This document shows positions 35,236 to 38,507 of a DNA stretch of 64,000 bases, piece after piece. Both the position numbers and the translations under genes were made by a program. Source of the stretch: the human T2T-CHM13v2.0 reference genome, Homo sapiens; assembly GCF_009914755.1 (NCBI RefSeq), contig NC_060941.1; one strand, written 5' to 3'. The notes under the pieces were generated by a model. That model did no database searches, had not been told where the DNA came from, and worked only from the letters and a program-made list of their open reading frames with translations. How positions within the stretch are numbered: the first letter of the stretch is position 1; each line of letters opens with the position of its first letter.

Positions 35236-35830
35236 TGCAGCATTCTTACCAGAGGCCATTGGGCCTGGAGTTCCAGTTCCAGTGTCTGGAGAGTCCACCT
35301 CAGCTCAGCAATCTCATGCCGGTTGGCAATTGTCAGCAGAAGCCGATGCCTGCCCATCAGTTCTTTACTCTGAGGTGTTAGAGTGGAATAAAAATATAAA
35401 TACTTATACTAGTTTTCATGACTTCTGCTTAATATTGGGTATTTTTTTGTTTTGTTTTGTTTTGGCGGTGATAGGCTTACCTTACATTAAACCAGGCCTT
35501 AGCCTTTCTGTGGCTTTGTTATGGCAAAGCCTCATATTACTCTCTAGTCTGGTTCAGCAGGACAGTCAGGTCCACACCTGGGGCTGTTTGTTTTCTACGT
35601 TTACCTCAACATAAGGTACCTTATCATTGTCAGCCTTCATCTCCTGATCCAAAATAAAATAAAATGCCACAGGTTACTTGATTTTGCATCTGGAATATGA
35701 TTATTTAAAGAAATTAAAAATTTAAAACTGAAAATGTAGAGTTTAGAAATCTTTTTTAAGGTTTCAAAAAAATTTCTAGGAGACAACAAAATAGTGTTAC
35801 TAGATTTAGCAAATAAAATACAGAATGCCA
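34703..35830 (+). ncRNA. KRT10-AS1: KRT10-AS1 (TMEM99) last exon; 3' end uncertain
   Basis: Strong acceptor T14-CCTTTTACAACAG|ATTC at 34702. Contains the TMEM99 ORF. AATAAA at ~35653 and ~35812. Confidence 0.7.
34838..35614 (+). CDS. TMEM99: TMEM99 ORF (258 aa, doubtful protein; locus now regarded as lncRNA KRT10-AS1)
   Basis: Single-exon ORF matching the recalled TMEM99 sequence (MVGILPLCCSGCVPSLCCSS...). It lies entirely antisense to pseudogene sequence, so coding status is questionable. Confidence 0.6.
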   Translation: MVGILPLCCSGCVPSLCCSSYVPSVAPTAAHSVRVPHSAGHCGQRVLACSLPQVFLKPWIFVEHFSSWLSLELFSFLRYLGTLLCACGHRLREGLLLPCLLGVGSWLLFNNWTGGSWFSLHLQQVSLSQGSHVAAFLPEAIGPGVPVPVSGESTSAQQSHAGWQLSAEADACPSVLYSEVLEWNKNINTYTSFHDFCLILGIFLFCFVLAVIGLPYIKPGLSLSVALLWQSLILLSSLVQQDSQVHTWGCLFSTFTST

Positions 35831-35978
35831 ATTAAATTTGAATTTCAAATGAACATTGAATACTTTTTTTGGTATAACTATATTCCATGCAATATTTGGG
35901 ACATATCTGTTATATTATTCATTGTTTACCTGAAATTATAATTTAAACTGAGAGTTCTGTATTTTATCTGGCAACCTT
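35793..35978. mobile_element. MER53-like palindromic hAT MITE
   Basis: aaaatacagaatgccaattaaatttgaatttcaaatgaac pairs with gtttacctgaaattataatttaaactgagagttctgtattttatctggcaacc. Central ccatgcaatatttgggacata. Confidence 0.8.
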
Positions 35979-36588
35979 ATTATGAAAATATTTAGGATCA
36001 ATATAAAGGAATAATATTTTTAATTTTTACAAACTATTTTAATATAAGTAATTTATTTGATTTTCATTGTCATCCTGAGAGTTAAGTTTTGCCTTACAGT
36101 CTATGTTACTTTACCTGTGTTTTATGAAAAGACTGTCTCTTATAATGATAGCCACCACCACCATATCTTGACAAGTATTGACATACTGAAACTTTAAATT
36201 CATTTTGTGTAGTTCCCGCCTCTTCATGATTGTTTCTGAGGTAATTCAGCTTCTCCGTCTGGCTTTCCATTTTCAACTCTAGGTTAGTCTTGTTCAAAGT
36301 CAACTCATCTAAGACACTTCGCAGGCCCTTGCTATCAGCCTCAACACAGTGATAAAGGACAACTTTACTCTGGCATCTGAACAGAGCCCAATTGGAAGAA
36401 TCAATACAGCTTAGATGGAGGTCTCCTCATCCAGTGGTAATAAAACATCCCACATAGTGGAGCTTAGAGAGCACAGCACTGGGATGTGAAGACATGGGTT
36501 CAAATTGCACCTCTGCCATGTTCAGCTGTCACCTTGGGCAAATTACTTCTCTGAACCTTAGTTTTCTCATCATTAAAATGGGAATATT

Positions 36589-36902
36589 GGTTTTTTGTGT
36601 GTGTGTGGTTTTTTTTTTTTTTTTGAGACCTAGTCTTGCTCTGTCACCCAGGCTGGAGTACAGTGGCGTGATCTTGGTTCACTGTAATCTCCGCCTCCCA
36701 GGTTCAAGCGATTCTCCCACCTCAGCCTCCCACGTAGCTGGGATTACAAGTGTGCATCACCATGCCTGACTAATTTTTGTATTTTTAGTAGAGACAGTGT
36801 TTCATGTTGGCCAGGCTGGTGTCAAACTCCTGACCTCAAGTGATCCACCTGCCTCAGCCTCCCAAAGTGCTGGGATTACAGGCGTGAGCCACTGTGCCTG
36901 GC
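36589..36902 (-). mobile_element. Alu inserted in a MIR within pseudogene intron 2
   Basis: Reverse Alu. TSD TAAAATGGGAATATT at 36574-36588 and 36903-36917. Confidence 0.95.
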
Positions 36903-37607
36903 TAAAATGGGAATATTATGAGAATTGAGTTAATGTGCAAAAGTGCTTAGCACAGCATCAGTATTTAGTAAATGGTAGGAATAACATTATTAAAGCCATG
37001 AAAGAGTGAAAATCTCCCCTCTGCTCTTTTGACTAGGAAAGGAAGCAAGCTCCTTTTCACGTACAGTGCAATGCACCTTTGTTTTACAAGGACTGTGTCT
37101 CCCTAGTTAAAAAAAAATTAAAGTACAGTATGGGGGACCTCCTGCAGTTCTATAAAAACCAAGTCTCTGACCTACGGATTGGAGAGTCATACACCATACA
37201 TGAGATTTCAAATCGCTAGCCTGGGAATTTTCACATTGCTAACCTATGACCACTATTGTAATTTAAACATAAAAGAGATTGTTTTATGTTGAGATGTTTA
37301 ATAATGTGAAATAATGATATTGTAAATTTTGTAGTAACTGTTTAAAGTGGTGAATTGGGGAGGTTTTTTTTTTTTTTTTTTTTTTCAGTTCTTTACATGG
37401 TTTCTGACTTACTTGAGCTTGAAGTCATCCACAGTGAGCCTGGCATTGTGGATCTAATGCGGAATGTTGGCATTTTCCAAAGTAACATTCGTTACCTTCA
37501 AGGGAGGAAAAGGAACCATATAATTTAACAAAATATGTTGGGTGCCATTAGGTCCAGATTATATACTTCATGGATTTCAATAATTATAAGTTTGTCAGTC
37601 ATATTTG

Positions 37608-37886
37608 TGCTAGTCATGGCGGCTCATGCTTGTAGTCCCAGCACTTTGAGAAGCTGAGGCTGGAGGATCACCTGAGTCCAGGAGTTCAAGATCAGCTTGA
37701 ACAACATAGTGAGACCCCATCTCTACAGAAAAAAATTTAGCTGGGAATGGTGGCACATGTCTGTAGTCCCTACTTGGGAGGCTGACATGGGAGGATTGCT
37801 CAAGCCTGGGAGGGTGAGGCTGCTATGATCGTGCCACTACACACACACCAGCCAGGGCAACAGAGCAAGACCCTGTCTCAAAAAAG
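37608..37886 (+). mobile_element. Alu (J-like) in pseudogene intron 1
   Basis: Diverged Alu. TSD agt(c/t)atatttgt. Confidence 0.9.
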
Positions 37887-38507
37887 TTATATTTGTATAA
37901 ATATATATCAGATAAACAGTAAATTTAAATTTTTCTCGGACTATTACAGAACTTTTCAGCTAAATATATTTTTTAGAGCTTCTGAAATACAGGATAAATG
38001 TTTCTCTTTCAAATGAATGAGCCATTTCATATTAATTTTTATGCACGTTAGACACTTTTCTCGACATTAGATGCATTAATTAATCAGATACAATATATGT
38101 TTGCCAGGAGAAATGTAAGTTGTCAAGGTAGTAGGCCTGGCATTTGTTTAAATTCTGTGTGGTTTTTGTCTCATTACTTGAAAGAAGGCCACCACCATCA
38201 GAGTCACCAGAATTTCACAGGCCCCTATTTAGTCCAGCACTCATGCTACTCCACCCTGTGCCAGGACCCAACCTACCCTCAACACCATAAAAGCCACCAG
38301 AAGGCCCACTACCACGGCCCTCTGCTCTCTTGAGAGCCCCCTACAATGACATAGGTTCCCCTGAGCCTCAACAGACTCAGAGCCACTTTCAGTGCTGCTG
38401 TGCTGCCACAACCCAGAGGAACAAGCCACTGTGTGGAGGTGTAGCAGAGATCTAAGGTTAAAGTATAGCCCCAAAGTCGGTGCATTATGGGGACCATTAT
38501 GGAGCCT

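What the first reader, a model, noticed from the sequence alone, without database searches (positions are those of the whole stretch)
35250..38400. Lost type I keratin gene between KRT10 and KRT12
Seen: five exon remnants on the same strand as the neighbours, each alignable to KRT10 in this window. Ex1: Gly/Ser head (EGRGSGPSGGFYGVEG...) plus GLLSSNETKTTQNLNKCQAYYLD vs [23 protein letters not shown]. Ex2 (83 nt): VTNVTLENANIPH*IHNARLTVDDFKL, stop at 37454-37456. Ex3 (157 nt): CQSKVVLYHCVEADSKGLRSVLDELTLNKTNLELKMESQTEKLNYLRNNHEE, donor changed to GC. Ex4: EMK...VNVE / APGVDLTVLLNQTRE*YEAL...AWFN. Ex5: SKEL...EIAELRWTLQTLELELQAQWPL|GTAAG. The second half of exon 1 appears deleted. Inference: an anciently inactivated paralog whose ortholog may be intact in other mammals. 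It may correspond to one of the catalogued KRT22xP pseudogenes; I cannot tell which.
Basis: seen in the sequence. Interest (0 to 1): 0.72.

Follow-up and report, generated by a model that had tools for sequence, protein, structure and literature searches.

The report
Dead keratin gene between KRT10 and KRT12
The stretch holds the decayed, intron-containing remains of a once-working skin-type (type I) keratin gene that humans lost long ago, a modest addition to the known list of lost keratin genes.

Summary
Five minus-strand exon remnants (window 38193-35250) are collinear with KRT10 residues 139-390. They keep the type I keratin exon sizes (83, 157, 163 and 120 nt, against 83, 157, 162 and 126). 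Each is the only significant hit of its exon profile in the 38.5-kb KRT10-KRT12 interval (E 2.6e-8 to 8.1e-25; all other hits E>0.09).

It is an unprocessed pseudogene. It carries a TAG in exon 2, a GC donor after exon 3, two 1-nt deletions, a 3-nt insertion and two TAA in exon 4, and 6 nt missing from exon 5. The second half of exon 1 is gone, and exons 6-8 are lost or nearly so.

It is not a recent KRT10 copy: nucleotide identity to KRT10 is 63.6% and no intron similarity remains. Trees place it in the KRT10/KRT24-28 part of the suprabasal subcluster; a KRT12 sister position is rejected.

Codon-position branch lengths point to a long selected phase, then roughly twice the neutral decay of KRT223P. 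That suggests loss on the order of 100 million years ago (rough inference).

It is not KRT221P, KRT222, KRT223P or the KRT224 relic by position. RefSeq has no row for it, and the papers I could read do not mention it. GENCODE and HGNC could not be checked, and no mammalian orthologue test was possible.

Today it is transcribed antisense within the last exon of KRT10-AS1.

The parts
38215..38340 (-). Gly/Ser-rich head-like stretch in the same frame as the 1A fragment, closed by an in-frame TGA (38217-38215)
   Evidence: ORFs 38215..38340 and 38080..38214 are adjacent in one frame. There are 13 Gly and 5 Ser in 41 codons. tblastx to the KRT10 head plus 1A gives 38% over 66 aa. This is low-complexity sequence and weak evidence.
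38113..38193 (-). Exon 1 fragment: end of head and start of coil 1A (KRT10 aa 139-165); homology stops abruptly at 38113
   Evidence: tblastn 59% over 27 aa. nhmmer E 2.6e-8. Nothing matching KRT10 aa 166-208 lies downstream.
37413..37495 (-). Exon 2 remnant, 83 nt, AG acceptor and GT donor kept, TAG at 37456-37454
   Evidence: nhmmer E 3.7e-11.
36220..36376 (-). Exon 3 remnant, 157 nt, open frame, AG acceptor, donor GT changed to GC
   Evidence: nhmmer E 8.1e-25. Pfam PF00038 E 4.6e-9, profile positions 99-142. Best PDB match is the keratin 10 1B chain 6e2j_B, E 1.2e-12.
35481..35643 (-). Exon 4 remnant, 163 nt against 162: one 3-nt insertion, two 1-nt deletions, two TAA in the shifted frame; AG and GT kept
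   Evidence: nhmmer E 1.4e-15. PF00038 E 0.0053, positions 164-196.
35250..35369 (-). Exon 5 remnant, 120 nt against 126, AG and GT kept, open frame
   Evidence: nhmmer E 1.1e-11; hmmsearch E 5.2e-9.
33894..33922 (-). Possible 5' fragment of exon 6 (peptide SLTETESNYC), 1.3 kb 3' of exon 5; unproven
   Evidence: nhmmer E 0.52 and hmmsearch E 0.23 for the whole interval. 24 of 27 nt match KRT27 and 22 of 27 match KRT10. 1 of 300 shuffles of 30000-35249 reaches its nhmmer score. 0 of 500 shuffles and 0 of 227 real-DNA control windows reach its pairwise score.
37617..37938 (.). Repeat insertion in relic intron 1; it reads as an Alu
   Evidence: Masked stretch in the hub table. Alu-type matches to Alus in KRT25 and KRT39 introns.
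36529..36908 (.). Repeat insertion in relic intron 2; it reads as an Alu
   Evidence: Masked stretch in the hub table; sequence.
35790..35980 (.). Old interspersed repeat of about 190 nt in relic intron 3 (approximate bounds)
   Evidence: query positions about 520-713 have 62 other genome matches at 69-81% identity, on both strands.
34703..36595 (+). Last exon of lncRNA KRT10-AS1, covering pseudo-exons 3, 4 and 5 in antisense; it contains a 258-codon ORF (34838-35614)
   Evidence: Exon coordinates from the hub table. The ORF and its overlap (120 nt of exon 5, 134 nt of exon 4) are. The ORF matches no Pfam family.

Best explanation
Window 38400-35250 (minus strand; chr17:41,699,250-41,702,400 in T2T-CHM13) is the relic of an unprocessed type I keratin gene. 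It lay in tandem between KRT12 and KRT10, in the same orientation as its neighbours.

It was a distinct member of the suprabasal KRT10/KRT12/KRT24-28 subcluster, closest to KRT10 or to the KRT24-28 group. It was not a recent copy of any living human gene.

It evolved under purifying selection for a long time. It was then inactivated and has decayed neutrally for on the order of 100 million years. That date is an inference, with a plausible range of roughly 50-150 million years.

It can no longer make a keratin. Half of exon 1 is deleted, exon 2 has a stop, the exon 3 donor is GC, exon 4 is frameshifted with two stops, exon 5 lacks 6 nt, and the helix-termination exon 6 and the tail exons are gone or nearly so. 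Two Alu-type repeats and an older repeat sit in its introns.

Its only present-day activity is passive: pseudo-exons 3-5 are transcribed in antisense as part of the last exon of KRT10-AS1.
For: Shown:
- Five collinear same-strand matches to KRT10.
- Each exon profile has a single significant hit in the 38.5-kb interval, E 2.6e-8 to 8.1e-25, against a background of E>=0.09.
- Exon lengths are 83, 157, 163 and 120 nt against the family's 83, 157, 162 and 126. Splice dinucleotides are intact at 7 of the 8 exon 2-5 boundaries.
- PF00038 hits for exons 3 and 4 fall at collinear profile positions. The best solved-structure match is the keratin 10 coil 1B.
- The lesions are read directly from the sequence.
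- The locus is unique in the genome apart from one intronic repeat.

Placement:
- Identity is 63.6% nt to KRT10 and 50-61% to 20 other paralogues.
- The ML nucleotide tree puts it sister to KRT10 (UFboot 63), inside the subcluster (UFboot 94-96).
- The codon position 1+2 tree and the amino-acid tree put it next to KRT24-28.
- AU tests accept both the KRT10 and the KRT24-28 positions. They reject a KRT12 sister position (p 0.0005 nt, 0.039 aa) and the KRT13-19 group (p 0.011 nt, 0.045 aa).

Once functional (inferred):
- The terminal branch is 0.36 at codon positions 1+2 against 1.03 at position 3, a ratio of 0.33-0.37. Neutral evolution predicts about 1. Working paralogues give 0.08-0.61.
- Solving a two-phase model with a functional ratio of 0.12-0.15 gives about 0.24-0.27 neutral substitutions per site. 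The same model gives 0.14 for KRT223P.
- KRT223 is intact in strepsirrhine primates and the tree shrew (PMC6662840, section 7), which calibrates the comparison.
Against: - No orthologue from another mammal could be examined. Age, former function and any retention elsewhere are therefore inferences from human paralogues alone.
- Third codon positions are saturated. The date moves from about 30 to about 130 million years with the assumed functional ratio of 0.1-0.3.
- The exact sister gene is unresolved. Placement outside the subcluster is rejected only marginally with nucleotides (p 0.045) and not with amino acids (p 0.088).
- Three of the five pieces (exon 1 fragment, exon 2, exon 5) give no Pfam hit on their own. 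The exon 3 score of 36.8 bits is below the whole-protein cut-off of 40.
- No start codon, promoter or exon 6-8 was shown, so a complete gene is inferred, not seen.
- Names of paralogue loci outside the hub table (KRT9, 13-17, 19, 34, 37, 38) come from recalled gene order.
Confidence: 0.87

Rival explanations
1. A dead-on-arrival partial duplicate of KRT10, holding only the 5' part of the gene, that was never a working gene.
For: - Only exons 1-5 are clearly present, and half of exon 1 is missing.
- KRT10 is the nearest paralogue by nucleotide identity (63.6%) and in the all-sites tree.
- KRT10 has been duplicated in other lineages: horse KRT10A/B (PMC5573215, passages) and the opossum triplication (PMC6367960, passages).
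Against: - The terminal-branch ratio of codon positions 1+2 to position 3 is 0.33-0.37, not about 1.
- Position 2 differs from KRT10 at 24.8% against 51.5% at position 3.
- No intron-flank similarity to KRT10 exceeds shuffles at any of the 8 flanks.
- The KRT10 sister position has only UFboot 63, and the KRT24-28 position fits equally well.
- A possible exon 6 fragment lies at the expected place.
Confidence: 0.07
2. The conserved-looking pieces persist because they now serve the plus strand, either as functional parts of the lncRNA KRT10-AS1 or as coding sequence of its 258-codon ORF. On this reading they are not neutral debris.
For: - Pseudo-exons 3-5 lie wholly inside the last annotated KRT10-AS1 exon (hub table).
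- The plus-strand ORF 34838-35614 runs over 120 nt of exon 5 and 134 nt of exon 4 without a stop.
Against: - Exons 1 and 2 lie outside the lncRNA exon and are preserved as well: 67.9% and 69.9% nt identity to KRT10, against 53-67% for exons 3-5.
- The ORF matches no Pfam family.
- RefSeq now calls the gene non-coding (hub table).
- The indels in exons 4 and 5 are what neutral decay gives.
Confidence: 0.05
3. Chance resemblance of coiled-coil-like or low-complexity sequence to keratin.
For: - Three of the five pieces have no Pfam hit on their own.
- The head-like stretch is low-complexity.
Against: - There are five separate significant hits in the right order, on the right strand, with the right lengths and splice sites.
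- No comparable hit occurs anywhere else in the 38.5 kb.
Confidence: 0.01

Closest known systems
KRT223P (human type I keratin pseudogene between KRT24 and KRT25)
   Same: Both are unprocessed relics in the same subcluster, on the same strand, with the family's exon sizes. KRT223P was analysed here side by side with the relic.
   Different: - KRT223P lies about 115 kb away (hub table).
- It still has a well-kept exon 6 (62.5-64% aa to KRT10) and a clear sister gene, KRT24 (UFboot 100).
- It shows about half the estimated neutral decay.
- It is named, and it has intact orthologues in galago, sifaka and tree shrew (PMC6662840, section 7).
KRT224 relic (human remnant of a gene kept in platypus and marsupials)
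   Same: It is an ancient type I keratin lost in placentals, found as a remnant by comparative genomics (PMC6662840, section 7). This is the same kind of finding.
   Different: It lies on the 3' side of KRT24, not between KRT10 and KRT12. I did not examine its sequence. Its supplementary figure could not be opened.
KRT10
   Same: It is the nearest living human paralogue by identity: 63.6% nt and 54.6% aa. It is the adjacent gene, on the same strand, with the same exon plan.
   Different: KRT10 is intact. There is no intron similarity. The working genes of the subcluster are 68-75% identical to KRT10 over the same columns, so the relic is a separate old lineage. Exons 4 and 5 resemble KRT24-27 as much as KRT10.
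Extra Krt10 copies of opossum and other marsupials, and horse KRT10A/B
   Same: They are additional KRT10-like genes next to KRT10 (PMC6367960, PMC6662840 and PMC5573215, passages). They are possible living counterparts of the relic.
   Different: Those papers describe them as lineage-specific duplications.

Membership tests
Type I keratin / intermediate filament rod (Pfam PF00038) | Sequence match to the IF rod profile | tested here: met
   Exon 3 gives E 4.6e-9 at profile positions 99-142, and exon 4 gives E 0.0053 at positions 164-196. Both are fragments, below the 40-bit whole-protein cut-off. The other 3 of 5 pieces give no hit on their own. The best PDB match is the keratin 10 1B chain.
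Type I keratin / intermediate filament rod (Pfam PF00038) | Type I exon plan: exons 2-5 of 83, 157, 162 and 126 nt with conserved phases | tested here: met
   The relic has 83, 157, 163 and 120 nt, with AG/GT at 7 of 8 boundaries. The same lengths were recovered with AG/GT in most of the paralogues examined. The exceptions were KRT24 exon 2, KRT223P exons 3-4 and KRT23 exon 5.
Type I keratin / intermediate filament rod (Pfam PF00038) | Helix initiation motif at the start of coil 1A | tested here: inconclusive
   A degenerate version is present (…TQNLNKCQAYYLD). The match breaks off after it.
Type I keratin / intermediate filament rod (Pfam PF00038) | Helix termination motif at the end of coil 2B (exon 6) | tested here: not met
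   No exon 6 end was found 3' of exon 5. Only a 27-29 nt candidate for the start of exon 6 exists.
Unprocessed pseudogene | Introns kept at the parental positions, plus disabling lesions | tested here: met
   Four introns lie at family positions. The lesions are one TAG, two TAA, two 1-nt deletions, a GC donor, a partial exon 1 deletion and loss of the 3' exons.
Catalogued human type I pseudogenes (KRT41P, KRT42P, KRT221P/KRT43P, KRT222, KRT223P, KRT224 relic) | Same genomic position | tested here: not met
   KRT223P is at window -80683..-77693 (hub table). A pseudogene-like exon 6 with 2 TAG lies at chr17:42.304 Mb in the hair-keratin block, and the exon 6 I take for KRT222 lies at 41.524 Mb (both names recalled). 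The KRT224 relic is beside KRT24 (PMC6662840). KRT41P, KRT42P and KRT221P are described as hair-keratin or KRT17-side genes (PMC2064177). GENCODE and HGNC tables were not available.
KRT10 duplicate (K10-like gene) | Sister to KRT10 to the exclusion of other paralogues | tested here: inconclusive
   UFboot is 63 with all sites. The relic is not sister to KRT10 with codon positions 1+2 or with amino acids. The AU test accepts both placements.

The most novel reading that the evidence does not exclude
The relic marks a ninth, still unnamed member of the suprabasal KRT10/KRT12/KRT24-28 subfamily. On this reading it worked for well over 100 million years and was lost near the base of placental mammals. 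Its living orthologues would then be among the 'extra Krt10 copies' of marsupials, or perhaps the horse. Those copies would be retentions of an old gene, not lineage-specific duplications. The human lineage would have lost at least three such genes (KRT223, KRT224 and this one), not two.
Probability: 0.2. Interest if true: 0.5.

Novelty: new member of a known kind. Interest (0 to 1): 0.35.

Why it matters
The keratin clusters are a textbook case of gene-family birth and death. A published count of type I genes lost on the human line stands at 'at least two', KRT223 and KRT224 (PMC6662840). A third, older relic next to KRT10 would refine that history. It gives a concrete syntenic target for asking whether the extra KRT10-like genes of marsupials and the horse are old or new.

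It also explains part of the make-up of KRT10-AS1. About 410 nt of that lncRNA's last exon is antisense keratin exon sequence, including about one third of its long ORF. This bears on whether that ORF was ever a real protein-coding gene.

The finding has no evident medical importance.

Tried and rejected
1. **Rat Ka11 as the living counterpart.** PMC2064177 calls it a rat gene that is dead in mouse and absent in man. Its accession Q6IFV0 (PMC3472765, table) falls next to KA16, Q6IFU9, in the same table, and after the accession I recall for rat K14. Hence it probably sits in the K14-K16 region, not here. I dropped the idea. This is an inference from accession order; the locus itself was not seen.

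2. **The search for homologous proteins with exon 3.** It scored 10 candidates and 3 passed. All three are TGA-read-through translations of this same locus, at 100%, 100% and 88% identity. No vertebrate keratins came back.

3. **The search of protein representatives with exon 3.** It found 315 proteins at E<=0.001. I read 17 of the 150 listed. They were K10-, K14- or hair-type exon-level ORFs and fused models. The best reach 66-69% identity over residues 11-52, the same as KRT10 itself (28 of 42, my count). No candidate orthologue stood out. The library keeps one representative per 50% cluster and has no names, so this is weak evidence.

4. **Rest of exon 1.** Only Alu matches were found.

5. 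**Intron-flank homology to KRT10 or any paralogue.** None exceeded shuffles.

6. **A second relic 3' of KRT12 (61186-61112).** nhmmer gives E 0.026-0.043. Its pairwise score of 45 barely tops the 42 reached by 187 real-DNA control windows. It is not established.

7. **Pfam on the plus-strand ORF.** No family matched.

9. **Supplements of PMC6662840.** They were closed. They may show the human KRT224 relic and the marsupial Krt10 copies.

10. **Literature.** Eight searches found no description of a keratin pseudogene between KRT10 and KRT12. Hesse 2004, Rogers 2004 and Zimek and Weber 2006 are not in the library and were not seen.
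Full report
**Observation**

The region was read on the minus strand and all stop-to-stop frames were listed.

KRT10 protein, spliced in a script from the hub's coding coordinates, gives five collinear minus-strand tblastn matches between KRT10 and KRT12:

| KRT10 residues | Window | Identity |
|---|---|---|
| 139-165 | 38193-38113 | 59% |
| 209-237 | 37498-37412 | 55% |
| 234-289 | 36381-36220 | 57% |
| 309-343 | 35584-35480 | 57% |
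| 362-390 | 35321-35235 | 48% |

DNA alignments to the KRT10 exons with their flanks fix the boundaries:

| Exon | Window | Length (KRT10) | Splice sites | Lesions |
|---|---|---|---|---|
| 2 | 37495-37413 | 83 nt (83) | AG / GT | TAG at 37456-37454 |
| 3 | 36376-36220 | 157 nt (157) | AG / GC | donor changed; frame open |
| 4 | 35643-35481 | 163 nt (162) | AG / GT | +3, -1, -1 nt; two TAA |
| 5 | 35369-35250 | 120 nt (126) | AG / GT | 6 nt missing; frame open |

**Is it more than chance?**

I fetched 21 human type I keratin loci from the window's own genome. I cut out their exon 1 (1A part) and exons 2-6 by homology and splice sites. Loci named in the hub table are KRT10, 12, 20, 23, 24, 25-28, 39 and 223P. 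The names KRT9, 13-17, 19, 34, 37 and 38 rest on recalled gene order.

Nucleotide and protein profiles of each exon were built without the relic and without KRT223P. I ran them over window 23000-61500 on both strands.

- Each of the five profiles has exactly one significant hit: E 2.6e-8, 3.7e-11, 8.1e-25, 1.4e-15 and 1.1e-11.
- All five are on the minus strand and in gene order.
- Every other hit has E>=0.09.
- Over the whole window only KRT10 and KRT12 are added.

Pfam's Filament model matches exon 3 (E 4.6e-9, positions 99-142) and exon 4 (E 0.0053, positions 164-196). The other three pieces are too short to score alone. The best solved structure is the keratin 10 coil 1B.

**What is missing**

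- Nothing matching KRT10 residues 166-208 lies between 38113 and exon 2; only Alu-to-Alu matches appear.
- The Gly/Ser stretch at 38340-38215 is in frame with the 1A fragment. It is closed by a TGA, is low-complexity, and is preceded by a (GATA)n run. I found no start codon or promoter.
- A genome-wide search with KRT10 exon 6 finds exon 6 of every cluster gene but nothing between KRT10 and KRT12.
- The profiles give only one weak candidate in the expected place, at 33922-33894 (peptide SLTETESNYC). It matches 24 of 27 nt of KRT27 and 22 of 27 nt of KRT10.
  - 1 of 300 shuffles of 30000-35249 reaches its nhmmer score.
  - 0 of 500 shuffles and 0 of 227 real-DNA control windows reach its pairwise score.
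  - It was picked as the best hit of its region, so I call it possible, not shown.
- It sits directly after sequence that looks to me like an L1 fragment. That is recalled, not tested.

**What kind of copy**

- Introns sit at the family positions, so it is an unprocessed copy.
- The locus is unique in the genome, apart from an old interspersed repeat of about 190 nt in intron 3.
- Identity over about 600 aligned nt is 63.6% to KRT10 and 50-61% to the other 20 paralogues.
- Over 194 comparable codons it is 54.6% identical to KRT10, 51-53% to KRT25-28, 50.8% to KRT24 and 45.4% to KRT12. The working genes of the subcluster (KRT12, KRT24-28) are 68-75% identical to KRT10 over the same columns.
- None of the eight 100-nt intron flanks resembles the matching flank of KRT10 or any other paralogue beyond shuffles.
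- It is therefore not a young KRT10 duplicate.

**Placement**

- The all-sites ML tree puts it sister to KRT10 (UFboot 63), inside the KRT10/KRT12/KRT24-28 group.
- The codon position 1+2 tree puts it sister to the KRT24-28 group, and the amino-acid tree puts it close to that group.
- AU tests accept both placements.
- AU tests reject a KRT12 sister position (p 0.0005 nt, 0.039 aa) and the KRT13-19 group (p 0.011 nt, 0.045 aa).
- They disfavour a position outside the subcluster (p 0.045 nt, 0.088 aa).
- Exons 1-3 lean to KRT10. Exons 4-5 lean equally to KRT24-27.

**Was it ever a working gene, and when did it die?**

- Against KRT10 it differs at 33%, 25% and 52% of codon positions 1, 2 and 3. 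KRT10 against KRT12 differs at 22%, 15% and 51%.
- On fixed topologies its terminal branch is 0.36 (positions 1+2) against 1.02-1.06 (position 3), a ratio of 0.33-0.37. A copy that was neutral from birth should give about 1. Working paralogues give 0.08-0.61.
- I fitted a two-phase model, selected then neutral, with a functional ratio of 0.12-0.15. It gives about 0.24-0.27 neutral substitutions per site for the relic.
- The same treatment gives 0.14 for KRT223P. Its orthologue is intact in galago, sifaka and tree shrew (PMC6662840, section 7 read), so it died on the line to humans after the split from strepsirrhines.
- The relic thus carries roughly twice the neutral decay of KRT223P. I infer loss on the order of 100 million years ago.
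- This is rough. Position 3 is saturated, and the answer runs from about 0.07 to 0.29 substitutions per site as the assumed ratio goes from 0.3 to 0.1.

**Present state**

The hub table places the last exon of KRT10-AS1 at 34703-36595 on the plus strand, so pseudo-exons 3, 4 and 5 are transcribed in antisense. A 258-codon plus-strand ORF (34838-35614) runs over 120 nt of exon 5 and 134 nt of exon 4. It matches no Pfam family. From memory this ORF is the former TMEM99 protein model; no tool confirmed that.

**Known or new?**

- The RefSeq table supplied by the hub has no row for a pseudogene here.
- The 2006 nomenclature paper (PMC2064177, passages) lists five type I pseudogenes: KRT41P, KRT42P, KRT221P (a hair-keratin pseudogene), KRT222P and KRT223P.
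- The dog and horse catalogue (PMC5573215, passages) lists four for man: KRT41P, KRT42P, KRT43P and KRT223P.
- Ehrlich et al. 2019 (PMC6662840, section 7) studied the locus from KRT222 to KRT12. [quoted passage not shown] They note two Krt10 copies in marsupials.
- PMC6367960 (passages) reports a Krt10 triplication in the opossum and cites the horse duplication.
- None of the passages I saw mentions a relic between KRT10 and KRT12.
- Searches for KRT221P, KRT224P-226P, TMEM99, KRT10-AS1, Ka11 and related phrases found no description.
- I could not see GENCODE, HGNC, the closed supplements, or Hesse 2004, Rogers 2004 and Zimek and Weber 2006. Novelty is therefore probable, not certain.

**Orthologues**

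No other mammalian genome was on hand. The two large protein searches returned only read-through translations of this same locus and generic K10- or K14-like exon ORFs. Whether the marsupial or horse extra KRT10-like genes are its living counterparts remains open.

**Verdict**

This is a real, ordinary kind of object: an old unprocessed keratin pseudogene relic. It is apparently uncatalogued, of modest interest to keratin evolution, and of some use in explaining the content of KRT10-AS1.

Noticed in passing
window 34838-35614 (+): A 258-codon open frame in the last exon of KRT10-AS1 is encoded in part by the antisense strand of keratin pseudo-exons 5 and 4 (ORF residues 138-178 and 215-258). 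It matches no Pfam family. From memory this is the former TMEM99 protein model.
   Followed up: partly
window 61112-61186 (-), about 430 bp 3' of KRT12: A weak exon-6-like piece (…EYDMVLALKSSWLRAEINTYQ) resembles the end of coil 2B. It is closest to the loci I labelled KRT13, KRT15 and KRT16 (65 of 89 and 77 of 109 nt). nhmmer gives E 0.026-0.043. Its pairwise score of 45 is only just above the best (42) of 187 real-DNA control windows, so it is not established. It may be a second relic.
   Followed up: partly
window about 35790-35980: A repeat of about 190 nt inside relic intron 3 has 62 other matches in the genome at 69-81% identity, on both strands. This suggests an old short inverted-repeat element. 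It is not in the hub's list of the longest masked stretches.
   Followed up: no
window 38510-38575: A (GATA)n microsatellite lies directly upstream of the head-like stretch of the relic.
   Followed up: no
proteins P0001-P0003: Public metagenome-derived protein sets hold 'proteins' of 137-219 aa carrying a Pfam Filament label. They are translations of this human locus, and of an 88%-identical relative, read through TGA as W. Two of them start inside the Alu of intron 2.
   Followed up: partly
L041 (chr17:41563700-41568100, KRT24), outside the window: In my exon extraction, KRT24 exon 2 matched KRT10 only over the last 10 of 27 codons, and the extrapolated acceptor was TA, not AG. The hub table lists KRT24 as a transcribed pseudogene in this assembly.
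   Followed up: no
L037 (chr17:42485820-42495819), outside the window: Just beyond the locus I labelled KRT17 there are two short keratin-like matches (KRT10 aa 218-234 and 259-289). They fit the known KRT42P position; that name is recalled.
   Followed up: no
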